DNA of 64,000 nucleotides from an uncultured Verrucomicrobiota bacterium. GTDB lineage: Bacteria; Verrucomicrobiota; Verrucomicrobiia; Limisphaerales; UBA9464. Positions within the stretch are counted from its first letter, which is position 1, and each line of letters begins with the position of its first letter. The notes beneath the pieces are model-generated. The model searched no databases, was not told where the DNA came from, and saw only the letters and a list, made by a program, of their open reading frames with translations. This document shows positions 15,508 through 24,742 of the stretch, in pieces. The translations under genes were made by a program, and so were the position numbers. Location of the stretch: assembly GCA_903896505.1 (NCBI GenBank), contig CAITXU010000246.1:9657-73656 (forward strand). Reading direction: 5' to 3'.

Positions 15508-15603
15508 GGACCCCGTTCGGTTGGGCGGAGTCGAGTTTCCCACGGTCTTGCAGACGGCCACTTGGTTGGGCCCTTGCGGATGGCATGCTATTGGGACCGC
15601 CGC

Positions 15604-15990
15604 GGCTCCGCCGGACCGCGGCGGTCCGATCGACGCCCCAATCGCAAAGGCGAAGCCCATGGGCCGTCCGCAGGACCGCGGCTCGACAGGAGTCTCGCCG
15701 ATGTGAGTCGGATTCAATAGGCTGGACTGATGATTTAGAAAGCCATGGTAGGGCGAGGCTCCGCCGAGCCGCGGCGGTCCGTTCGACGCCCGATCGCAAA
15801 GGCGAAGCCCATGGGCCGTCCGCAGGACCGCGGCTCGACAGGAGTCTCGCCGATGTGACTCGGATTAAATAGGCTGGACTGATGATTTAGAAAGCCATGG
15901 TAGGGCGAGGCTCCGCCGAGCCGCGGCGGTCCGTTCGACGCCCCGATCGCAAGGGCGAAGCCCATGGGCCGTCCGCAGGACCGTCCGCAG
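15604..15990. repeat. tandem array (~2.5 copies, 152-153 bp period) of a GTAG-type REP/REPIN unit
   Basis: GGCTCCGCC...GCGGCGGTCCG units begin at 15604, 15757 and 15909; GGTAGGGCGAGGCTCCGCCGAGCC pairs with the inverted GGCTCGACAGGAGTCTCGCC. Confidence 0.92.
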
Positions 15991-16078
15991 GATCGATGCT
16001 TCCTCTTGGAGAGAGGCGCTGACGGGTGCCACTTTTTCCTGGGTGGAGTCGGGGAAACTCCAATGTCCACTGTTCGAA

Positions 16079-16106
16079 GCTGTTGGTGCCGACGGAGGGG
16101 GTCGAA
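16079..16106 (-). repeat. att site: duplicated tRNA-Leu 3' end (T-loop to CCA, plus 5 nt)
   Basis: Exact match to 24652-24679. Confidence 0.93.
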
Positions 16107-16289: not shown

Positions 16290-16760
16290 CTAGACCTGGT
16301 AGCGCTTCAGGACCCGGCGAACGAGGTGATCCGGTAAAAAGATATTGGTCTGCTTCAGTCTTTCAATTGCTTCCGACACGTCGAGCAAACCGCGACTGGC
16401 TGCTTCCTCAAGGATGCCAATCAAGCCTTGGACGGGAATCCCCGACGAAACCGCTGCCGTGCGGCCCGCTGCATCATCCATCAGAATCAGCCGGGCACCG
16501 AGTTCGAGTCCCAAAGCGATTGCCTCACGTTCGCCTGGACCCAGCTCCGGGAAACTCAAGGCGAAGCGGGGCGTCGATACCTCCACCCATTCGGGAATGT
16601 TTGCGGCCCAAGACCGGACGATCAAAGGAGCTTTGGGGTGCAGTAGTTCAACATGCACCGCCGTTGGAAGCGTCAACGAGCCGTAGAGCTCGCGAAGGAT
16701 CCCGACCTGTCCGATCAACAGGAGGTAATTCAGCGGGCCTGTATCGGCGATGACGATCAC
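16290..16760 (-). CDS. PIN-domain (DUF3368-type) toxin
   Basis: VIADTGPL, P.AV..EL, LGPGEREAI and ILMDD..GR. Confidence 0.85.
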   Translation of the reverse strand: MIVIADTGPLNYLLLIGQVGILRELYGSLTLPTAVHVELLHPKAPLIVRSWAANIPEWVEVSTPRFALSFPELGPGEREAIALGLELGARLILMDDAAGRTAAVSSGIPVQGLIGILEEAASRGLLDVSEAIERLKQTNIFLPDHLVRRVLKRYQV

Positions 16761-17017
16761 GCCGGGGTCGTGAGCCGGTCGTTGTCGAGGGAGTCGTCGA
16801 TGCTGTCTTTGGCGGGGTATGGCACCCGGCAGGCAGTGAAGAGTTCTTCGGCCTCGTGAAATCCAATTCCGAGAAGTTCAGCCACCTTGCCTCGTGACAG
16901 GCGTCCGCGGGCGCATTCGTCGACCAGCAAGGCCTCAAAGAGCCGCCGTGGCAGGGCCGCTGAACCGTAGCCCAGGGTCCTGGCCAGCGACTCCGGGAAG
17001 TCGAGGGTGATTTCCAT
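16757..17017 (-). CDS. UPF0175-family antitoxin
   Basis: ITLDFP..., GRLSRGKVAELLGI HTH; 4-bp overlap with the PIN gene. Confidence 0.8.
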   Translation of the reverse strand: MEITLDFPESLARTLGYGSAALPRRLFEALLVDECARGRLSRGKVAELLGIGFHEAEELFTACRVPYPAKDSIDDSLDNDRLTTPA

Positions 17018-17065
17018 ACGTTACAAACTGAAGGTCATCCGATGCCCGCATCCTTGCAACTCCGT

Positions 17066-17386
17066 TCACTCTGAAACCAATTGCTCATGAATGGGCACCG
17101 CTTCAGCGCGGATTTTGGCCTCAACAAAGCGATTCAGACGGGAACAGAAGTCGACTTTGCGACCCAGGAGGGCGGACAGTTCTTCGTCGTAAAGGAAGTA
17201 CCGGAAACCGACGTTCTGAAGAGCTACGGGTTCGAACTCGGCGAGGACATCGATGTCGCTCCGAGCAGGGTCGAAGTCGGCCCGGAGAACCGAGCCAAAC
17301 AAGCTGAGCTTCCGGATGCCGCGTTCTTGGCAGAATTGCCCAACTTTGGCCCGGTCGATCTCTATGGGGAGTCGTACCTCGTCCAT
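17066..17386 (-). CDS. minimal nucleotidyltransferase (MntA-type antitoxin) with no HEPN partner
   Basis: LFGSVLR.DF...SDIDVL and LLGRKVD. Confidence 0.85.
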   Translation of the reverse strand: MDEVRLPIEIDRAKVGQFCQERGIRKLSLFGSVLRADFDPARSDIDVLAEFEPVALQNVGFRYFLYDEELSALLGRKVDFCSRLNRFVEAKIRAEAVPIHEQLVSE

Positions 17387-17471
17387 GCCTCAACTATTCA
17401 CCGACTGACGGCAGGCGGCAATGCCTGAGGCTCGGCTTTACAGACTAGTTGGTCCGTTCCAGCCTATTGCG

Positions 17472-17708
17472 GTGAAGCTTTATGAGACAACCGGACGGGT
17501 TGGGCCGGGCGGCGAACTGACGTTGACCGACTTGCCGTTTTCCAGCGGGGACGAGGTCAAGGTCCGGATCGAATCCGTTGCGGATTTGCCCATAGCTCGC
17601 ACCCCGTTCGTCTTTGGACTCCACGCCGGACTGGTGACGGTGCACGAGGACTTTGACGCTCCCCTGCCCGATTCTTTCTGGCTGGGGGAGGGTGAAATTC
17701 GTGCCTAA
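17472..17708 (+). CDS. DUF2281-like antitoxin (copy 1)
   Basis: C-terminal FGLHAG.V.V.EDFDAPLPD.FW signature; start uncertain (GTG 17472 or ATG 17421). Confidence 0.7.
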   Translation: MKLYETTGRVGPGGELTLTDLPFSSGDEVKVRIESVADLPIARTPFVFGLHAGLVTVHEDFDAPLPDSFWLGEGEIRA

Positions 17709-17719
17709 TGCCCGCCGTT

Positions 17720-17852
17720 TTAGCACCAACGGTGCGACCCGGTGACAGCCCAGGGCATCGTCCTGGGTAAGCGGTGTCCAATAGTCCAAGCCCTGAAGGG
17801 GCGGATCAACCCATGCCATTCCCTTTTCCATCCAAGGGGAAGCACCGTTACC
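17720..17852. repeat. palindromic element CCCAGGGCATCG(T/C)CCTGGG...GCCCTGAAGGGGCG (REP-like), copy 1
   Basis: Near-identical copy at 19303-19430; internal hairpins. Confidence 0.8.
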
Positions 17853-17882
17853 CTCCACCGGCTGACAGCGGGCAGCAAAGGC

Positions 17883-18284
17883 TCACTCGATGAGGCGCAC
17901 GTTGGGGAAATACGTCTTAAACCGGGATTTGTCACTGGTGGCGACCGGGAAACCAGTGACTTCAGCGTGTGCACCGATGAAGAAGTCTGGAAGCGGCATT
18001 GCCCGGCGACGCTCACCTTTGACGGAAGACCGTGTCAGAAATCGTTTGAACGCGGTCGCAGCAACCGCACAGGAAGACCAAGGTAGATCGAGCCGGTGAA
18101 CGTCCATCATGGCGAGTGCGGAGTCCAAGGTTTCAGAGGGCTGACCCTGAAGCAGTTCCGCATAAATGATGGGGTTGATGCCCATGGCACCCGCATTCGA
18201 TCTAAGCGTTGAAATCGCCCATTCGTGGGCCGGGGAGTCCGGGTCTTCCGCGTCGAAGAAGACGTTGGAATTAATGATCAGCAC
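17883..18284 (-). CDS. VapC/PIN toxin
   Basis: IINSNV, NPIIYAEL, LPDFFIGAHA and TSD..RF.TYFP; the first PIN Asp appears as Asn. Confidence 0.85.
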   Translation of the reverse strand: MLIINSNVFFDAEDPDSPAHEWAISTLRSNAGAMGINPIIYAELLQGQPSETLDSALAMMDVHRLDLPWSSCAVAATAFKRFLTRSSVKGERRRAMPLPDFFIGAHAEVTGFPVATSDKSRFKTYFPNVRLIE

Positions 18285-18507
18285 GGCGGGATTCCCGAAC
18301 TTTTTTCACCATTGGACGGTCAAACTTCAGCATCCGCAGTCCGCTATCGAACGTGGCGACTGAACTCGCTTTCGCAATGATGAGTGGGGCTTGAGCCCGG
18401 ATACACTGGCGGACAACCTCTGCTTTCGATGACTTGGCGGCTTTGGTTGCCTCATTCAGGAGCGCTAGCGTCTCCTCGTCGATCAACGTGGGCGGCAACT
18501 TCGGCAT
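18271..18507 (-). CDS. putative ribbon-helix-helix (CopG-like) antitoxin
   Basis: TLIDEETLALLNEATKAAKSSKAEVVRQCI; overlaps the PIN start. Confidence 0.65.
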   Translation of the reverse strand: MPKLPPTLIDEETLALLNEATKAAKSSKAEVVRQCIRAQAPLIIAKASSVATFDSGLRMLKFDRPMVKKVRESRRADH

Positions 18508-18773
18508 ATCTAAAGCATATCTCGCTGGGTCACCCTGTAAAGTGTGACGAACAATCGGGCAGAGAACGGGGGCGACGGCACCTGACCAAGTTGGGATTGA
18601 GACCACCTTGAAGGAGCAGCGAGCCGAAGAGTGACAAAGGGAAGGGGGGCGGGGGGGTGCTCTGAAGCGGGGGAGGGCCTCGGGCGACATTGGTTAATGA
18701 GGGGGAGATTTTTGGACAAATTGCCGGTTCTTGATTCCCTTCTAAAAAAGGTCAACATTGACTGGATAGATTT

Positions 18774-19010
18774 ATGACCAACGCCACCCTGACCTTGACC
18801 TTACCCAGCGACGAGGTGGACTCGCTCAAATCCTTCGCCGTCGATCATGGAATCACTGTGGCCGAATTGGTCGGTCGTTTTGCCCAGGGCCTTAAATCGG
18901 TGGGTCCTGTTTCGATTCATCCGGAGGTATTGGCCCTGACCGGTCTGGTTCCATCAAACTGGGATGTCGAGGCTGAACATCGACAGCACCTCGTCACCAA
19001 ACATCGGTGA
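18774..19010 (+). CDS. putative antitoxin (RHH, DUF6364-like) with toxin lost
   Basis: LTLTLPSDEVDSLKSFAVDHGITVAELV...HPEVLALTGLVP...HLVTKHR. Confidence 0.65.
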   Translation: MTNATLTLTLPSDEVDSLKSFAVDHGITVAELVGRFAQGLKSVGPVSIHPEVLALTGLVPSNWDVEAEHRQHLVTKHR

Positions 19011-19051: not shown

Positions 19052-19291
19052 GTGCAAAATCCGTATGAGATAGCTGAACGGGTTGGACCTGACGGCGTGC
19101 TGACGTTGAGCCACCTGCCATTTCCGATCGGACAGGAAGTCAAGGTCTGCATCGGATCCACTCCGGATGCCCCCACAGCTCTCGCCCCGTTCGCCTTTGG
19201 CCTGCACACCGGATTGATTACGGTGTGCGAGGACTTTGATGCTCCGCTGCCTGACCCTTTTTGGCTGGGCGAAGATGAGACTCCTTCCTGA
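19052..19291 (+). CDS. DUF2281-like antitoxin (copy 2)
   Basis: Paralog of 17472-17708 (YE...RVGP.G.LTL..LPF..G.EVKV...FGLH.G...EDFDAPLPD.FWLGE). Confidence 0.7.
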   Translation: MQNPYEIAERVGPDGVLTLSHLPFPIGQEVKVCIGSTPDAPTALAPFAFGLHTGLITVCEDFDAPLPDPFWLGEDETPS

Positions 19292-19302
19292 TGGCCTCCG
19301 TC

Positions 19303-19430
19303 TTAGCACCAACGGTGCGACCCGGTGACAGCCCAGGGCATCGCCCTGGGTAAACGGTATTTAATTTTCCAAGCCCTGAAGGGGCGGACCAACCCATCCC
19401 AGTTTCCATCCAAAGGGATGGACCGTTACC
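19303..19430. repeat. palindromic REP-like element, copy 2
   Basis: TAGCACCAACGGTGCGACCCGGTGACAGCCCAGGGCATCG is identical to 17721 onward. Confidence 0.8.
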
Positions 19431-20369: not shown

Positions 20370-21482
20370 TCATGGCGTTGGAGCGGCCGCGGGTGGTAGG
20401 ATGACCAGCCAAGTCACGAGGTCGAATTCGCTCTGGTGGGCGGTCGGTGTCTCCGCCGTCGTGGGGAGGACAGCACAGCGTGCGGTGGTAAGGTTTTTGG
20501 CCGCCTTGTCGGTAAACTCGACCGCGATGGAGTTCAGGGCAGCGGTGAGCAGGCCACTGTAGTGGGTCATGTCGGCTCCATCGTGGGTGCGCTGGTCGAA
20601 CAGGTCGCACAAGTCACGGTAAGCTGAAGGCTGGCCTGCGGCGAGATTGCGAAGCAGGAGCATGGATTTTTTGGGCTGAGCGAAGCCCAGGCGCACGGTG
20701 CCATCGTCCTGGACCAGAATGAGGTAATAGGGTGCCAGGGGATTGAGCTGGGCGACGGAGGACAGGGGGGCCGGTCCCGCCTGCCCCGGGCTTCGAGCCG
20801 GGTGCTGTGTCGTGCCCCGATGGCGGAGGCAATAGAGGACTCCGGGGCGGGCGTCATCGAAATTGGCCTGGGCGGGAACAACGGCGTAGTGCCCCTCCCC
20901 GGCCTCTTCCAGAGTCTTGCGATTGGCGGCCAGGAACTGGAGGAGATCGAGCCGGAATTCGTCGAGGGAGAAATCGGTCAGCGATACGGAGTCGTCGAGG
21001 TCTTCCAGGTCGAGCACTTCGTCCCGCAGCCGCTTGAGCTGGCGGTCGCGGAAGAGGAGGTCTTCCTTGATCAGGTCGTCCAGCTGGGTGCGGTCGAGCA
21101 AATTATCGGTCTGGGTGGCGGTCAGGTCGACCAGTGCCATGCGGGACTCGACGCGGTGTTTGGCCGGACGCTTACGAACTTTGAGGTGCCCATTCAATTC
21201 GGCGGCATGAACCGCATCGGCAATATTGAGGCGGATTTCTTCGATGTGAACTTTTGCTGACCTCAACTCTGCTTTATCTTGTAACGTGGAACCTCTACGT
21301 CTAGATTTCCTATATAAATGTCGCGTGTTATAGACACTTAACGCGAGGTAGCAATTGATATTTTCAGATGTAGAGGTCCCTCCGAGGATATTGGCGAATA
21401 CATTGTATACAGGCCGCCAAGCATTTCTAACAGCTCCTGCGCCGACTAGTAGAACTACCGGATTACCGAAGAGATTAGACAT
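20370..21482 (-). pseudogene. chimera: low-GC SIR2-like N-terminal fragment fused to the C-terminal part of an SNF2-type helicase
   Basis: VLLVGAGAV in AT-rich DNA (21180-21482), then an abrupt switch to GC-rich RVESRMALVDLTAT...DRQLKRLRDEVLDLED...DFSLDEFRLDL; no helicase core motifs. Confidence 0.65.
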
Positions 21483-21618
21483 AGAAACGACCTATAGATC
21501 ACCCAGACTTCGACTTCTCGTATAGGCTTTTGGTCATGAACTCTATCGCCAGAACAATGTGTTCGTGGTGCATAGGGTACAGCGTTCGAGCTGCATTCCA
21601 AGGAGACGAGTGCCCCAG

Positions 21619-22032
21619 CTAAGTTCTCAAAAGTAAATCGCACTGGCTGGCGATGATCGTGGCCTTCTCCTTTTGCTGTGCCTTGGTGAGCACGGGATCA
21701 TGCTCAAACCGAGGCCACCCACGGATTGCAGCGTGACGATGAGGAGGCTCGGAAACAGCAAGGGTGAGGCCTGCTTCATGCGTTGCACTTGGGCGGAAGA
21801 TGGCGGCTCCGTAAAACGGTCGCCCTACCAACGCCCCTGTCCCTATCGTCCAAAGCTGATCCTCAGGTTTGGCTCCGTGCCGAAACACGGAGGTTTCCAA
21901 ACTAGTAGTGCTCGGGAGAAAGGCGGACGGTTTAACCATCGTTGTGTTAAACTGGTTGCTCTGCGTCAGGAAACGACAGAGTTCCTCGCCATCAGAGATG
22001 ACGTCTTCAAGCCCTGACGGAAGAACTCCCAT
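21619..22032 (-). CDS. hypothetical protein, possible ADP-ribosyltransferase-like toxin
   Basis: LCRF...SAF...TSVFR...EPPHRHAAIRG pattern; overlaps the upstream gene. Confidence 0.55.
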   Translation of the reverse strand: MGVLPSGLEDVISDGEELCRFLTQSNQFNTTMVKPSAFLPSTTSLETSVFRHGAKPEDQLWTIGTGALVGRPFYGAAIFRPSATHEAGLTLAVSEPPHRHAAIRGWPRFEHDPVLTKAQQKEKATIIASQCDLLLRT

Positions 22033-22516
22033 TGAGAAGGACTGATCGGATGCCCTCCAAAACCATGGACGGAACTTCCCTTCCATCGAAAGAAGCCACG
22101 CCGTAACCTTTGTCCGAACCATTTAACCAAGAATATGCAAGGCGGTGAGTCTTGCCGACACTGAGGGAGAAAAGCCGGTTGCGCGATTGAATCCAATCGA
22201 GTGAGATCGACCCGTCGGGTTCTGGAGCAAATTCCGGGAAAGGAGCCCATCCAGGCAGGCAACGTAAAATTTGTTCCGCCGTTACTACTGCTGAAGGTTG
22301 CAGTCCAACAGCATCTTCCCCATCCCAACCGTTGCAGAAACATTCAGCGGCAAGAGCCCGCAATTCGGACTGAGCCTTTCGAAGGGGGCCAAAGCAAGCC
22401 TCCGATTTCTCGACATGAAATGCTACGACGCCCACTGCCTCGCGGCTTCTGGTTGCCACCTCCGAAACGGCGCTACTGTGGCGCACGTAACCACTCAGAA
22501 GAGCGTATGCGGTCAT
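22007..22516 (-). CDS. hypothetical protein (TIGR04255-associated)
   Basis: NGWDGEDA...P.PE..PEPDGSISLDW; ATG 22516 overlaps the TIGR04255 stop (ATGA); alternative start 22543. Confidence 0.65.
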   Translation of the reverse strand: MTAYALLSGYVRHSSAVSEVATRSREAVGVVAFHVEKSEACFGPLRKAQSELRALAAECFCNGWDGEDAVGLQPSAVVTAEQILRCLPGWAPFPEFAPEPDGSISLDWIQSRNRLFSLSVGKTHRLAYSWLNGSDKGYGVASFDGREVPSMVLEGIRSVLLNGSSSVRA

Positions 22517-23274
22517 TCCAAGGGGTGAAACAATTGCAGGCATTTTTCAGTTAGGCTTTTTAAGAATACCCGATTATTCAAACGCCGCAACGATTGAATT
22601 TGGCCCAATATCTGCTCCCACCCGTTAAGCTCTCTGGTGTTCATGGAGACCGAGCTGATGTCCAGAATCACAGGCAAACGATCTCCTTCCAAACCTTGTG
22701 AAGCCATTACCCATTCGACGACCTCCCCAGTTTCCTTTTCCAAAGCTACCCTTTGGTCCAAAAATCGCAAAAAGCTGAGGGTATCTTTATCGGGAAGTAA
22801 GGGACTATGGACGAAGTAGTCGCTCAATTGCATCGGTAGCCCTTGCAAAACCGGCAACTGAAGCAGATTGATATAGCGGAGCCGAATGAGACGGATTTGG
22901 ATCGGCAATGCCAAATCGACAAAAAGCCTCCATGCCCGCTCAATTTCCGGAAGGCAGGCGTCTAATCCACTGTATGGGGCCAACCGATTGAACGAAAAGC
23001 CCTCCCGACGCACTTGAACGATTTGTTTCTCGTCTTCACTCACGTGCTGGTGAGCAGACACACCCAGTTCAGCGGAAGCATGCGTCGGTGTTCCCGCTTT
23101 CATCTCCAGGTGATGCGTGGCGATGATTGGTTTCCGAAGTTTGGGATAACCGGACAGAAAAGCCTTCTTGAAACGATCTTCCGACCTCGCCAGGTCGAAA
23201 TCTGGCGGCAAATCACAGTCGATGTCCAAAACGACCTCAACGACGGGCGAATTCCCAAGCTTCACTGGGTGCAC
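22513..23274 (-). CDS. TIGR04255 family protein
   Basis: L.NSPVVEVVLDI, FSFNRLAPYSG, IRLRYINL, ILDI and F.KSLTEK. Confidence 0.8.
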   Translation of the reverse strand: MHPVKLGNSPVVEVVLDIDCDLPPDFDLARSEDRFKKAFLSGYPKLRKPIIATHHLEMKAGTPTHASAELGVSAHQHVSEDEKQIVQVRREGFSFNRLAPYSGLDACLPEIERAWRLFVDLALPIQIRLIRLRYINLLQLPVLQGLPMQLSDYFVHSPLLPDKDTLSFLRFLDQRVALEKETGEVVEWVMASQGLEGDRLPVILDISSVSMNTRELNGWEQILGQIQSLRRLNNRVFLKSLTEKCLQLFHPLE

Positions 23275-23299
23275 GTGATAGGCTTGCCGGACTTTTGAG

Positions 23300-24351
23300 T
23301 CAAATACGGAACACCTTCATGACTTCGTCGCCGAGGTGGTTGATCACTTTGACGGCGATGCGTCCGGAGTTGGGTTTTGCGAAGGGGCGGGAGGTGTCGT
23401 AGTTGAACGCGCAGGCGATCAGGACATCAAAACCGCCGTCCCCAGCCTCGCGGGCGGCTGAAACCAAGTCGGCGCGCTGGACGGTTCCGAATTCCGGTCC
23501 GATAAAGATGGCGGCGCGTTTCTCGACATCCCCTTCCAGGTACCGGCCCTCGGCACATACCAGGTAGCCAGGCCACGGGACCAGCGGATTGAAGCTAATG
23601 CGCCCGGCCTTGTGCGCCTGCTGGACCCCGGCAGACCGCAGGTTCTCCAGAATCATCTCCGGGAAGGTCTTTCTGGCCCGGTAATCGGGACCCCTTTCGT
23701 CGGCAGTGTCGATCAGTTCATCGTTTTCATCGACGCCCAGGACGCGATGGGGGGAGAGACTTTCCACCGTGAAGGGACCCGCCACGCGGACCTTCCTTTT
23801 GTCCTCATACGGCTTGTCGTAGAGGTATTCGAATTCTGCCTTGGCGGCGATGGAGGCATCGATTTCCCGTTGGCGGGCGATGCTGGCTTCCCACCAGGCC
23901 GCGTGGAGCTTTCGTGCCGCCTCCGACCATTTGGCGTCGGCTTCCCGGGGAATCTCCCACTCCTGCCAACTACTCTTCACGGCGGCGTTGAACTGCTCGC
24001 GCAACGGTTCGAGCGTCTTTTGCCACGTCTCCCAAATGACGTCGATTTCGGCGTTGTTGGAAATCGCCTCAAGCGTGATGTGGGGGACCCGCTCATAGAC
24101 AAAGCCGTGACGCACGTTATACCGGAACGCGGTCCCGTTAGGCGCAAATGAGGAACCGTAGGCCTCGACCTTCTTCTTTGCGCCATCGGGACTGTCGGAA
24201 AGGAGGTAGAACGGGTAGCGAGCGCCCATGATCCGGGCTCGTGCTAAAGCCAGTGCAACCCGGGACGTATCAATGGTGATCCAACGGCGCCCCATTGCTC
24301 GGCAACGTACGCAGATGTACCTGACCCGCATGTTGGGTCGAGCACCAGGTC
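23300..24351 (-). pseudogene. site-specific DNA methyltransferase (type III Mod-like) C-terminal remnant with a frameshift and an apparent internal deletion
   Basis: [20 protein letters not shown] (motif I), then a 1-bp loss in a G run near 24290 shifts into [18 protein letters not shown]...RVAGPFTVESLSPHR...GRIAVKVINHLGDEVMKVF; no DPPY motif. Confidence 0.85.
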
Positions 24352-24594
24352 TTCGGCAAGCTCGGCGAAGCGTTTGTTGCCCTGCTTGCCGGTCACAGGG
24401 TCCGGGTATCGGACAAGGTAGGAGACGTAGTCCTTCCCATCGACGGTGATGGGGTTGGCGTAAATCTTGCCGGTGACTCAACCGACTTTGACCGTGATCG
24501 GAGCGGTGCGGGTCTTGGCGGGAAGTGCGGGAGCGACGGTGCCGGAAGTGGTCGAATTCAGACCGGTCGACGTGGTAGGCGCGGGCTTAGTCAC
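24352..24594 (-). pseudogene. N-terminal remnant of a putative tyrosine integrase
   Basis: Hand translation gives ...PITVKVG*VTGKIY...[12 protein letters not shown]...[11 protein letters not shown], with an in-frame TGA at 24478-24480; lies directly beside the att site. Confidence 0.55.
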
Positions 24595-24656
24595 AGGAAC
24601 ACTGTAACTAATCCGTAATTAAAAGTCAAACCGCCGTCGTAAGTGCTTGATGCTGT

Positions 24657-24742
24657 TGGTGCCGACGGAGGGGGTCGAACCCACACTCCCATAGGGAACC
24701 AGATTTTGAGTCTAGCGCGTCTGCCAATTCCGCCACGTCGGC
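24657..24742 (-). tRNA. tRNA-Leu(CAA)
   Basis: GCCGACG/CGTCGGC acceptor stem, D-loop GGAATTGGCAGAC, anticodon loop CT-CAA-AA, long variable arm, GGTTCGACCC T-arm and encoded CCA. Confidence 0.96.

What the first reader, a model, noticed from the sequence alone, without database searches (positions are those of the whole stretch)
21619..23274. Intact TIGR04255 / unknown / ART-like triad inside a wrecked island: candidate toxin-antitoxin-chaperone or anti-phage module
Seen: three tightly coupled minus-strand ORFs (ATGA overlap at 22513-22516; overlap at 22007-22032) remain intact while the flanking methylase and SIR2-like/helicase genes are broken. The last ORF shows an R...S-V-F...H pattern (LCRF, TSVFR, EPPHRHAAIRG) reminiscent of ADP-ribosyltransferase folds. 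Known: CmdTAC is an anti-phage triad of an ART toxin, an antitoxin and a SecB-like chaperone, and defence genes cluster next to RM systems. Inference: TIGR04255 is the chaperone or sensor, the middle ORF the antitoxin and the last ORF the toxin. Retention amid decay would fit addiction.
Basis: partly seen in the sequence, partly recalled or inferred. Interest (0 to 1): 0.75.

Follow-up and report, generated by a model that had tools for sequence, protein, structure and literature searches.

The report
Conserved three-gene TIGR04255 defence-like cassette
Three overlapping genes that have stayed intact inside a decayed genomic island form a cassette found almost unchanged in many bacterial phyla, often among anti-phage genes, and it looks like an uncharacterised toxin-type or defence module whose claimed ADP-ribosyltransferase toxin is not established.

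Summary
The three minus-strand ORFs are real genes. A (22513-23274) is a TIGR04255 protein. B (22007-22543) and C (21619-22032) belong to unnamed families. Of 80 loci from other genomes that encode a B relative, 74 also encode A and C. In 72 of those the order is A-B-C on one strand, usually with 20-35 nt overlaps. The three proteins co-diverge, and dN/dS against the nearest relative is 0.14-0.20.

The cassette lies in an 8.5 kb island at tRNA-Leu, bounded by a 36-nt direct repeat. The methylase next to it is a remnant. In about a quarter of evaluable loci the cassette sits between a type III-like methylase and a UvrD-like helicase; in 34 of 54 it has neither. Twenty-two of 216 other neighbouring genes hit anti-phage models.

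On six plasmids, distant TIGR04255 genes head similar small operons with unrelated partners, one of them a zeta toxin. This fits a constant first component with swappable effectors.

The ART idea for C is only a lead. The model is confident, and the only geometrically coherent PDB matches are one KptA protein, all below significance. Every sequence and profile test was negative. The cassette is not CmdTAC. It is a candidate new tripartite toxin/defence module with unproven roles.

The parts
22513..23274 (-). Gene A: TIGR04255-family protein, 253 aa, GTG start. It is the first gene of the cassette.
   Evidence: NCBIfam TIGR04255 E 4.3e-25, 89 bits, cut-off 30. Found next to B in 76 of 80 loci. 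Alignment A3 has 27 invariant columns, including the QVRxxGFSFNRLxPY and RLRYIN motifs. No Pfam, PADLOC or PHROG hit.
22007..22543 (-). Gene B: unnamed family, 178 aa. It overlaps A by 31 nt if it starts at the ATG at 22543. The alternative ATG at 22516 gives the ATGA overlap.
   Evidence: 400 relatives of 550 candidates, mostly 179-182 aa. The alignment supports the upstream start. AF2 model pLDDT 80: the N-terminal helices are low-confidence and the beta-rich domain at residues about 100-170 scores above 90. No significant fold or sequence match in the PDB.
21619..22032 (-). Gene C: unnamed family of stand-alone proteins of about 135-140 aa. Its start overlaps B by 26 nt. It is the candidate effector enzyme.
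   Evidence: 64 relatives of 86 candidates. 2437 representative clusters at E<=0.001. AF2 pLDDT 93. In 111 diverse members P40 and H100 are invariant, and E16, R20, S48, R51, E95, W106 and D112 are at least 90% conserved. The best coherent fold match is KptA, below significance.
23300..24351 (-). Remnant of a type III-like DNA methyltransferase (the 'U' gene of related loci). It lacks the N-terminal 454 residues and about 125 internal residues, and has a frame change near 24290.
   Evidence: PADLOC MTase_III PDLC03632 E 1.8e-154 over profile positions 507-804 of 983. tblastn with intact relatives from L001, L002 and L018. The Pfam N6_N4_Mtase domain lies at residues 158-472 of the intact L018 protein.
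24657..24742 (-). tRNA-Leu (CAA), the integration site of the island.
   Evidence: ARAGORN.
24644..24679 (.). Direct repeat that includes the 3' end of tRNA-Leu. It marks one island boundary.
   Evidence: 36-nt repeat family D5, 92% identical to 16071-16106.
16071..16106 (.). Second copy of the 36-nt direct repeat. It marks the other island boundary, giving an island of about 8.5 kb.
   Evidence: the repeat finder family D5.
20370..21482 (-). Downstream ORF inside the island. It looks like a fragment, is unrelated to the UvrD-like 'D' gene of related loci, and is not part of the cassette.
   Evidence: PADLOC HKD+Snf2 model, positions 752-922 of 948 only. phrog_26785, positions 854-1046 of 1087. 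No homologue among the ORFs of the 80 loci.

Best explanation
Genes A, B and C form one horizontally mobile, translationally coupled operon. It is a self-contained conflict module of the toxin-antitoxin or abortive-infection type, built from three uncharacterised families.

Most likely division of labour (inferred, not shown):
- C is a small enzyme that acts as the effector or toxin. It may be a divergent NAD+-using, ART-like enzyme.
- B holds C in check. Its poorly conserved, low-confidence N-terminal helices would be the labile or neutralising part, and its conserved C-terminal beta domain the binding part.
- A (TIGR04255) is the constant component that senses a trigger or controls the B/C pair.

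The cassette works on its own in most genomes. It is also a frequent insert between the methylase and the UvrD-like helicase of a type III-like restriction system. The window's copy came from that form and has outlived it.

Shown: gene reality, conserved linkage and order, co-divergence, purifying selection, island and defence context, and variable partners of TIGR04255. Inferred: toxicity, neutralisation, who does what, and any NAD+ chemistry.
For: Linkage:
- Of 80 loci with B, 76 have A and 75 have C.
- 74 have all three and 72 have them in the same order and strand. The A/B overlap is 20-35 nt in 54 of 74 and the B/C overlap in 47 of 74.
- The loci that lack a gene are decayed copies.

Co-inheritance and selection:
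- Mantel r is 0.72 (A-B), 0.56 (B-C) and 0.58 (A-C), each p=0.001, over 68 loci.
- dN/dS is 0.14, 0.17 and 0.20 against L001.

Spread and autonomy:
- Record titles name at least a dozen phylum-level groups.
- Of 54 loci that can be judged on both sides, 34 have neither the methylase nor the helicase, and 14 have both.

Conflict context:
- The window's copy lies in a tRNA-Leu island with PIN/RHH, nucleotidyltransferase/UPF0175 and DUF6364 genes.
- In related loci the flanks are a type III methylase (PADLOC E=0), a protein with RE_endonuc, and a UvrD/GajB-like helicase.
- 22 of 216 other neighbours within two genes hit PADLOC at E<=1e-8: type I methylase, mad3/mad8, TIR, HEC-01, AbiP2, SoFic and others.

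Survival beyond the flanks: the methylase is a remnant in the window, and the helicase is broken in the nearest relative L001 while its triad is whole.

Role of C:
- On a Vibrio plasmid a distant TIGR04255 gene is followed by a 179-aa gene and then a zeta toxin (Pfam Zeta_toxin E 3.1e-12).
- Five further plasmid TIGR04255 genes head 2-3 gene operons whose partners are unrelated to each other and to B and C.
- C has a compact, confident fold (pLDDT 93) and near-invariant polar residues.
- R20 sits on strand 1 and S48 on strand 2. E95 lies in the loop just before strand 5, which starts at the invariant H100.
- The fold has six strands with helices after them. This fits the ART core as described in PMC9503650 (passages).
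- Chains of one KptA, an ART-superfamily enzyme, are the only matches among the 45 rows listed with both rmsd 4.1-5.5 A and at least 90 aligned columns.
Against: - No experiment and no characterised homologue exists for A, B or C.
- PADLOC, Pfam and PHROGs give nothing for B and C, and only the uninformative TIGR04255 name for A.
- Most neighbours (194 of 216) hit no defence model. No background rate was computed here.
- The ART lead is weak. Foldseek gave E 0.17 and TM 0.46/0.37, all five KptA chains are the same protein, and no other ART appears among the rows listed.
- BFVD gave nothing significant. The PDB profile searches were negative.
- No Pfam family recurred over 111 members.
- hhalign of the C profile against KptA gave probability 0.2% with one sequence and 0.16% with a 13-sequence profile, no better than the A and B controls.
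- The residue in the catalytic-Glu position at the start of strand 5 is His, not the Glu of the R-S-E clade.
- No fusion of C to a delivery or other domain was found.
- A, B and C are about equally conserved (mean pairwise distances 0.49, 0.49, 0.46), so conservation does not single out a labile antitoxin.
- On two plasmids TIGR04255 is followed by an HTH protein, which would also fit A being the toxin.
- The plasmid sample is only six operons.
Confidence: 0.5

Rival explanations
1. The roles are reversed. TIGR04255 (A) is the toxin or effector, and B and C are its neutraliser and regulator.
For: A is the only component shared by all TIGR04255 operons seen. On the Rhodococcus and Acinetobacter plasmids the next, overlapping gene carries an Xre/CI-type HTH, as in toxin-first type II pairs. 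A has many invariant polar residues: E13, Q87, R89, S94, N96, R97, R133, N136, D205, R230, N234.
Against: In the Vibrio operon the third gene is a bona fide toxin family, so A need not be the effector. In polymorphic conflict systems the variable genes are usually the toxin/immunity pair (general knowledge, recalled). A has no hit to any toxin model.
Confidence: 0.2
2. The triad is not autonomous. It is an accessory sub-module of a larger type III-like restriction/helicase system (Res, Mod, A-B-C, UvrD-like helicase), for example one that couples the helicase or methylase state to an effector. On this reading the window's copy is a functionless leftover.
For: The helicase lies immediately downstream on the same strand in 21 of 71 loci with at least 1 kb of downstream sequence, often overlapping C. 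Methylase and helicase both flank the triad in 14 of 54 loci. The window and L001 derive from that form. In L059 and L076 a C-terminal fragment of B directly precedes the helicase without A or C.
Against: 34 of 54 evaluable loci have neither flank. The same slot carries other cargo: an AbiP2 reverse transcriptase, an AAA_15 ATPase, and a DUF4062/HATPase_c_4 protein. This points to an insertion hotspot and not a fixed partnership. The triad stays under purifying selection where the flanks are broken.
Confidence: 0.15
3. The triad is a three-subunit module with a function outside conflict (metabolic, regulatory or repair), and its place in islands is incidental.
For: 194 of 216 neighbours hit no defence model. 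No relatives were found in the phage or plasmid collections for B and C. All three proteins are well conserved. KptA, the only fold lead, is an RNA-repair enzyme (passages in PMC9503650).
Against: The distribution over many phyla is patchy, with decayed copies. The window's copy lies in a tRNA-flanked island beside TA genes. The cassette recurs inside an RM/helicase operon and next to known defence genes. One TIGR04255 operon carries a zeta toxin.
Confidence: 0.1
4. The triad is a homologue of the CmdTAC toxin-antitoxin-chaperone system.
For: Only the gene count and the weak ART-like lead for one component.
Against: No PADLOC hit for A, B or C at E<=1. No SecB or other Pfam domain in A at E<=1. 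CmdT has an HY-[EDQ] triad, CmdA is two helices plus a long disordered tail, and CmdC is a SecB homologue (passages in PMC11618068). None of these fits: C keeps R/S/E/H, and B has a folded C-terminal beta domain.
Confidence: 0.02

Closest known systems
CmdTAC (ART toxin, antitoxin, SecB-like chaperone; PMC11618068, passages read)
   Same: Three small co-transcribed genes. The proposed logic is similar: an effector held by a neutraliser that depends on a third protein. One component has a possible ART-like fold.
   Different: No sequence or model match. A is TIGR04255, not SecB. C lacks the HY-[EDQ] triad. B has a folded, conserved C-terminal domain where CmdA has a disordered chaperone-addiction tail. 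If C is the toxin, it is the last gene here; my recollection that cmdT is the first gene comes from no call.
Epsilon/zeta and omega-epsilon-zeta toxin-antitoxin modules (family knowledge recalled; the zeta domain was identified by Pfam)
   Same: A distant TIGR04255 operon on a Vibrio plasmid ends in a zeta-toxin kinase preceded by a small unknown gene. The third position of TIGR04255 operons can therefore hold a classical TA toxin.
   Different: The window's C is unrelated to zeta toxin. TIGR04255 (about 250 aa) is unlike the small omega repressor (recalled).
KptA/Tpt1 RNA 2'-phosphotransferase, H-H-h clade of the ART superfamily (PMC9503650, passages read)
   Same: It gives the only geometrically coherent structural matches to the C model: 9ldi probability 0.82, TM 0.46, rmsd 4.3 A over 126 columns. 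Both have a six-strand, helix-after-strand layout.
   Different: The match is below significance (E 0.17). Profile-profile comparison is null (probability 0.16%). C is 137 aa against about 180 aa in two lobes. The conserved residues are R/S/E/H, not H-H-h.
DarTG and RES-Xre (ART-superfamily toxins in two-gene TA or defence modules; recalled, DarTG seen only in the search listing)
   Same: Small NAD+-using toxins in mobile TA-type modules. This is the sort of chemistry C could have.
   Different: No match of C to any Pfam model at E<=1 for the window protein and E<=5 for 111 family members, so none to an ART-type family. The partners of those systems (a macrodomain for DarG, an Xre HTH for RES; recalled) are absent here.
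PrrC anticodon nuclease embedded in the EcoprrI type I restriction operon (recalled; not checked in any call)
   Same: A latent toxin gene sits inside a restriction-modification operon. About a quarter of the triads likewise sit between Mod and a helicase.
   Different: The families are different and the restriction system is type III-like. Most triads have no restriction flank.

Membership tests
TIGR04255 family (gene A) | Full-length match to the NCBIfam model above its curated cut-off | tested here: met
   E 4.3e-25, 89 bits against a cut-off of 30; residues 7-249 on profile positions 3-251 of 252. The ESM Atlas neighbours are all TIGR04255 clusters.
CmdTAC | SecB-like chaperone component | tested here: not met
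   No Pfam family in A, B or C above noise at E<=1. No PADLOC model hit at E<=1.
CmdTAC | ART toxin with the HY-[EDQ] triad of the diphtheria-toxin clade | tested here: not met
   In C the invariant or near-invariant polar residues are E16, R20, S48, R51, E95, H100 and D112. No conserved Tyr is among them. The feature is defined from passages in PMC11618068.
CmdTAC | Antitoxin with N-terminal helices and a long disordered C-terminal chaperone-addiction region | tested here: not met
   B is the reverse: low-confidence N-terminal helices and a confident, conserved C-terminal beta domain (pLDDT above 90 over residues about 60-170).
ADP-ribosyltransferase (ART) superfamily (gene C) | [quoted passage not shown] | tested here: inconclusive
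   The model has six strands and four helices in a compatible order. Foldseek PDB has no hit at E<=0.001. One KptA protein reaches probability 0.82, TM 0.46. BFVD gave nothing. Model coordinates could not be inspected.
ADP-ribosyltransferase (ART) superfamily (gene C) | One of the three active-site signatures (H-H-h, H-Y-[EDQ], R-S-E) on strands 1, 2 and 5 | tested here: inconclusive
   R20 (strand 1) and S48 (strand 2) fit R-S-E. The third position is E95 in the loop before strand 5, and the invariant H100 is at the start of strand 5. There is no E-x-E.
ADP-ribosyltransferase (ART) superfamily (gene C) | Detectable sequence or profile relationship to a known ART family | tested here: not met
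   Pfam on 111 members: no recurrent family, and Pertussis_S1 hit once at E 0.079. PDB profile searches were negative. hhalign against KptA gave probability 0.2% and 0.16%.
ADP-ribosyltransferase (ART) superfamily (gene C) | NAD+ binding and ADP-ribose transfer or NAD+ cleavage | not testable with these tools
   This needs biochemistry.
Type II-like toxin-antitoxin or abortive-infection module | One product is toxic and a co-encoded product neutralises it | not testable with these tools
   Only context is available: coupled small genes, an island, decayed flanks, and a zeta toxin in a sister operon.
Anti-phage defence system | Genomic association with known defence genes | tested here: inconclusive
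   22 of 216 non-methylase, non-helicase neighbours hit PADLOC at E<=1e-8. Methylase and/or helicase flanks occur in 20 of 54 evaluable loci. No background rate was computed.
Type III restriction-modification system (the flanking genes) | Intact Mod methyltransferase and Res subunit | tested here: not met
   The window keeps only a C-terminal methylase remnant without the catalytic domain. It has no match to the Res-like protein or to the UvrD-like helicase of related loci.

The most novel reading that the evidence does not exclude
TIGR04255 proteins are the common sensor or adaptor subunit of a large, unrecognised class of modular three-gene abortive-infection systems. One constant subunit is combined with interchangeable neutraliser-plus-effector pairs: a zeta kinase in one lineage and, here, a new minimal NAD+-using ART-like enzyme family with more than 2000 sequence clusters. 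The cassette is repeatedly plugged into a type III-like restriction/helicase operon, where it could fire when that first line of defence is disabled.
Probability: 0.2. Interest if true: 0.85.

Novelty: new variant of a known kind. Interest (0 to 1): 0.6.

Why it matters
All three families are uncharacterised. A full-text search for 'TIGR04255' and one for its recalled InterPro number each returned no paper. B and C match no Pfam, PADLOC or PHROG model. Yet the C family alone has 2437 representative clusters at E<=0.001, and the cassette is found in at least a dozen phylum-level groups.

If it is a toxin or defence module, it would add a new tripartite architecture and possibly a new effector chemistry. 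It would also give TIGR04255 a function for the first time. The recurrent position between a methylase and a UvrD-like helicase points to a cargo slot, or a guard relationship, inside a restriction system.

The claim is directly testable with standard cloning in laboratory E. coli.

Tried and rejected
- Complex prediction of A+B+C with C as the partner. The job was accepted after queue-full answers and collected. The tool's verdict was 'no answer (no support, and no evidence against)', because one control scored as high as the complex. It is not used as evidence either way.
- Foldseek of the B model against the PDB: nothing coherent.
- Foldseek of C against BFVD: best hit E 0.016, unnamed, rmsd 10 A.
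- Profile searches of A, B and C against PDB sequences: only chance-level hits to subtilisin, DFF45, 2ewc and 7ctq.
- ESM Atlas. C has only unnamed clusters, plus DUF6098 at 0.93 as an unfollowed lead. A has only TIGR04255 clusters. No structure search was possible for either.
- Search for longer or fused forms of C: none among 8000 candidates, which is weak evidence. The top 150 representative hits are all stand-alone proteins. The other 2287 were not seen.
- Protein comparison of A4 against KptA failed internally. The comparison was done with hhalign in a script instead: null.
- Internal duplication in A, and any relationship among A, B and C: none.
- Transmembrane helix at the N-terminus of B: rejected. 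The maximum Kyte-Doolittle 19-residue mean is 1.07.
- Promoter and terminator scan of 21300-24700: no more sites than in shuffles.
- tblastn of A, B and C against phage and plasmid collections. B and C have no match in plasmids, and A and C have none in phages. B was not run against phages. A gives one distant plasmid hit.
- Literature: no paper on this triad came up in searches for KptA/anti-phage/ART/toxin or for type III RM/UvrD/defence island/embedded.
- No AlphaFold-DB-wide fold search was on hand, and A could not be modelled.
Full report
**1. The observation**

The region holds three minus-strand ORFs:
- A, 22513-23274, 253 aa, GTG start.
- B, 22007-22543, 178 aa.
- C, 21619-22032, 137 aa from the ATG at 22032. 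The longest ORF would start at 22122.

The ATGA at 22516-22513 and the 26-nt B/C overlap are present, and so are the strings LCRF, TSVFR and EPPHRHAAIRG in C. A is a TIGR04255 protein (E 4.3e-25, 89 bits, cut-off 30).

Two details need correction.
- Relatives of B are about 179-182 aa and align from the upstream ATG at 22543. A and B therefore most likely overlap by 31 nt, not by ATGA.
- Relatives of C are about 135-140 aa and start at 'M..LPSGL', which supports the ATG at 22032.

**2. The genes are real and the cassette is conserved**

- C has 64 relatives among 86 word-sharing candidates. A profile of C finds 2437 representative clusters at E<=0.001 and 1177 at E<=1e-10. The 150 listed are all short stand-alone proteins.
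- B has 400 relatives among 550 candidates.
- A scan of one genome per species with the B alignment found 126 relatives, of which 80 loci were kept. Their record titles name at least a dozen phylum-level groups: Verrucomicrobiota, Nitrospirota, alpha-, beta-, gamma- and 'delta'-proteobacteria, Myxococcales, Acidobacteriota, Planctomycetota, Chloroflexota and others.
- In those 80 loci, 76 have a relative of A and 75 a relative of C. Seventy-four have all three, and 72 have them in the order A-B-C on one strand. The A/B overlap is 20-35 nt in 54 and the B/C overlap in 47. Most of the rest show larger apparent overlaps, because I took the longest ORF.
- The loci that lack a gene are decayed copies: truncated, split, or reduced to remnants.
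- Pairwise distances of A, B and C are correlated over the 68 loci that passed my length filters, out of the 74 (Mantel r 0.72, 0.56, 0.58; p=0.001).
- Against the nearest relative, L001 (75-78% protein identity), dN/dS is 0.14, 0.17 and 0.20.

**3. The surroundings in the window**

A tRNA-Leu(CAA) gene lies at 24657-24742. A 36-nt direct repeat that includes its 3' end recurs at 16071-16106 (92% identity). The triad therefore sits in an island of about 8.5 kb. I saw no integrase among the ORFs I scanned.

The island also holds:
- a nucleotidyltransferase next to a UPF0175 gene;
- a PIN gene next to a ribbon-helix-helix gene;
- a DUF6364 gene.

The gene upstream of A is a methylase remnant. 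It encodes residues about 455-773 and 899-935 of a 935-aa type III-like methylase. It has a frame change near 24290 and lacks the N-terminal 454 residues that carry the catalytic domain. Its remaining part still shows dN/dS 0.06 against L001, so the breakage is recent relative to that divergence.

The downstream ORF 20370-21482 matches only the C-terminal end of an HKD+Snf2 model and of a phage family. It has no relative in the 80 loci. 'SIR2-like' found no support.

**4. The surroundings elsewhere**

Two gene clusters recur on the same strand as the triad.
- Upstream there is a methylase of about 935-1069 aa (PADLOC MTase_III PDLC03632, E=0). It is often preceded by a protein of about 800 aa with an RE_endonuc domain and weak type III Res matches.
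- Downstream there is a UvrD-like helicase of about 700 aa, which hits the NERD+UvrD and GajB models.

Of 54 loci with at least 1 kb on both sides, 14 have both clusters, 5 only the upstream one, 1 only the downstream one, and 34 neither. The helicase follows C directly in 21 of 71 loci, sometimes overlapping it.

The same slot can hold other cargo:
- an AbiP2 reverse transcriptase (L062);
- an AAA_15 ATPase (L076);
- a DUF4062/HATPase_c_4 protein (L004, L039).

Of the 216 other neighbours within two genes, 22 hit a PADLOC model at E<=1e-8: 16 of 150 and 6 of 66. I did not compute a background rate. My recollection that defence genes make up a few per cent of a genome comes from no call.

In L001 the helicase is itself broken: it is in pieces, and residues about 300-550 are missing. 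Its methylase and triad are whole. In two related genomes, then, the triad has outlived a flank.

**5. What the proteins are**

- *A* has no Pfam, PADLOC or PHROG match, no PDB relative and no internal repeat.
- *B* (model pLDDT 80) has low-confidence, poorly conserved N-terminal helices and a confident, strongly conserved C-terminal beta domain. Nothing in the PDB resembles it. It has no transmembrane segment.
- *C* folds confidently (pLDDT 93, pTM 0.86) into six strands and four helices. Over 111 diverse members P40 and H100 are invariant. E16, R20, S48, R51, E95, W106 and D112 are at least 90% conserved.

**6. The ART question**

Points in favour:
- R20 lies on strand 1 and S48 on strand 2. 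E95 is in the loop before strand 5, which begins with H100.
- The strand-then-helix layout fits the ART core as described in PMC9503650 (passages read).
- Among the Foldseek PDB matches listed, only chains of Thermococcus KptA align at least 90 columns at rmsd 4.1-5.5 A. KptA is an ART-superfamily enzyme. The best is 9ldi: probability 0.82, TM 0.46 and 0.37.

Points against:
- No match reaches E<=0.001, the five chains are one protein, and no other ART appears among the rows listed.
- BFVD gives nothing.
- PDB sequence profiles give nothing.
- No Pfam family recurs over 111 members.
- The C profile aligned to KptA scores probability 0.2% with one sequence. It scores 0.16% with a profile of 13 KptA sequences from E. 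coli K-12 and 12 plasmids. That is no better than A or B used as controls.
- The third signature position is not the E-x-E of the R-S-E clade.

I put an ART-superfamily fold at roughly one chance in three. The CmdTAC paper notes that even CmdT aligned to exotoxin A only at rmsd 6.9 A. Weak matches are therefore not unusual for this fold, but that is no positive evidence.

**7. TIGR04255 in annotated records**

tblastn found distant TIGR04255 genes on six plasmids. Each is the first gene of a tight same-strand group:

| Plasmid host | Genes after TIGR04255 |
|---|---|
| Vibrio | a 179-aa gene, then a zeta toxin (Pfam Zeta_toxin E 3.1e-12) |
| Crinalium | 182-aa and 171-aa genes |
| Methylocystis | 70-aa and 192-aa genes, beside an AbiJ/Abi_C gene |
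| Acinetobacter | an Xre/CI-type HTH gene, then a 273-aa gene |
| Rhodococcus | an HTH gene, then insertion sequences |
| Thermus | a 147-aa gene, near VapBC, a methylase and cas6 |

The TIGR04255 proteins are related to one another. The partners are unrelated to each other and to B and C. With only six cases this is a pattern, not a statistic. It does fit a constant first subunit with swappable partners, and it shows that the last position can hold a classical toxin.

**8. Reading**

The best-supported account is an autonomous, mobile, three-gene conflict module of the toxin-antitoxin or abortive-infection type. C would be the enzymatic effector, B its neutraliser or adaptor, and A the constant sensor or controller. 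This module often rides in a cargo slot of a type III-like restriction/helicase operon.

Shown here:
- gene reality, linkage and co-divergence;
- purifying selection;
- island and defence context;
- survival beyond broken flanks;
- variable partners of TIGR04255.

Inferred: toxicity, neutralisation, role assignment and chemistry.

Rivals:
- A is the toxin, as the HTH genes after it on two plasmids might suggest.
- The triad is a dependent accessory of the restriction/helicase system.
- The triad has a function outside conflict.

CmdTAC membership is rejected, because its defining features were tested and not met.

**9. Novelty**

No paper in the searched library mentions TIGR04255 or its recalled InterPro number. 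Two topical searches brought up nothing on this triad. PADLOC-DB 2.0 (2023) has no model for any of the three proteins. Newer defence catalogues, preprint supplements and the closed metagenome and viral collections were not checked. An existing description under another name therefore cannot be excluded.

The kind of system, a small tripartite toxin or defence operon, is known. The parts are new.

Noticed in passing
window 16071-16106 and 24644-24679; tRNA-Leu at 24657-24742: A 36-nt direct repeat (92% identical) that includes the 3' end of tRNA-Leu(CAA) brackets an island of about 8.5 kb holding the triad. I saw no integrase among the island ORFs I scanned.
   Followed up: partly
window 15601-16000: Tandem copies of a 152-nt unit (98% identical pair at 15637-15940, plus partial copies) lie just outside the island's far repeat. 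Their nature is unknown.
   Followed up: no
window 17481-17780 and 19064-19363: A 300-nt segment is duplicated at 79% identity. It covers two paralogous small plus-strand ORFs (17421-17708 and 19052-19291) that have no Pfam match.
   Followed up: no
window 16757-19010: A run of toxin-antitoxin-like genes: UPF0175 (16757-17017) beside a nucleotidyltransferase (17066-17386); PIN (17883-18284) beside a ribbon-helix-helix ORF (18271-18690); and DUF6364 (18774-19010).
   Followed up: partly
L062:2483-4024, L076:4156-5853, L039:764-2233, L004:254-1735: The space around the type III-like methylase and the UvrD-like helicase carries other defence cargo in related loci: an AbiP2 reverse transcriptase, an AAA_15/OLD-like ATPase, and DUF4062+HATPase_c_4 proteins that hit SIR2/pAgo-associated models. 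It looks like a cargo hotspot.
   Followed up: partly
L059:315-719 and L076:5965-6381: A fragment equal to the C-terminal domain of B (residues about 54-177) sits directly upstream of the UvrD-like helicase, with no A and no C. It may be a deletion scar or a separate two-gene form.
   Followed up: partly
L001:6464-7743: In the nearest relative the UvrD-like helicase is in pieces and lacks residues about 300-550, while the methylase and the triad are intact.
   Followed up: yes
L002:6911-9016 (residues 37-81 of the protein): The unexplained N-terminal region of about 240 aa in the UvrD-like helicase gives a weak HigB-like toxin match (E 6.8e-4, below the Pfam cut-off).
   Followed up: no
L083:158-2105 (Vibrio parahaemolyticus plasmid CP063527.1): A TIGR04255 gene is followed by a 179-aa unknown gene and then a zeta-toxin-family kinase that overlaps it by 4 nt. 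This looks like a sister architecture to the window's triad.
   Followed up: partly
window 20370-21482: This ORF matches only the last 170-190 positions of an HKD+Snf2 defence model and of phrog_26785. Its first 100 or so residues match nothing. It may be a chimeric or truncated gene.
   Followed up: partly
L014:5034-9716 and L079:6900-8880: Large mad3/mad8-like ATPase genes (MADS system models) lie just downstream of the triad in two unrelated loci.
   Followed up: no
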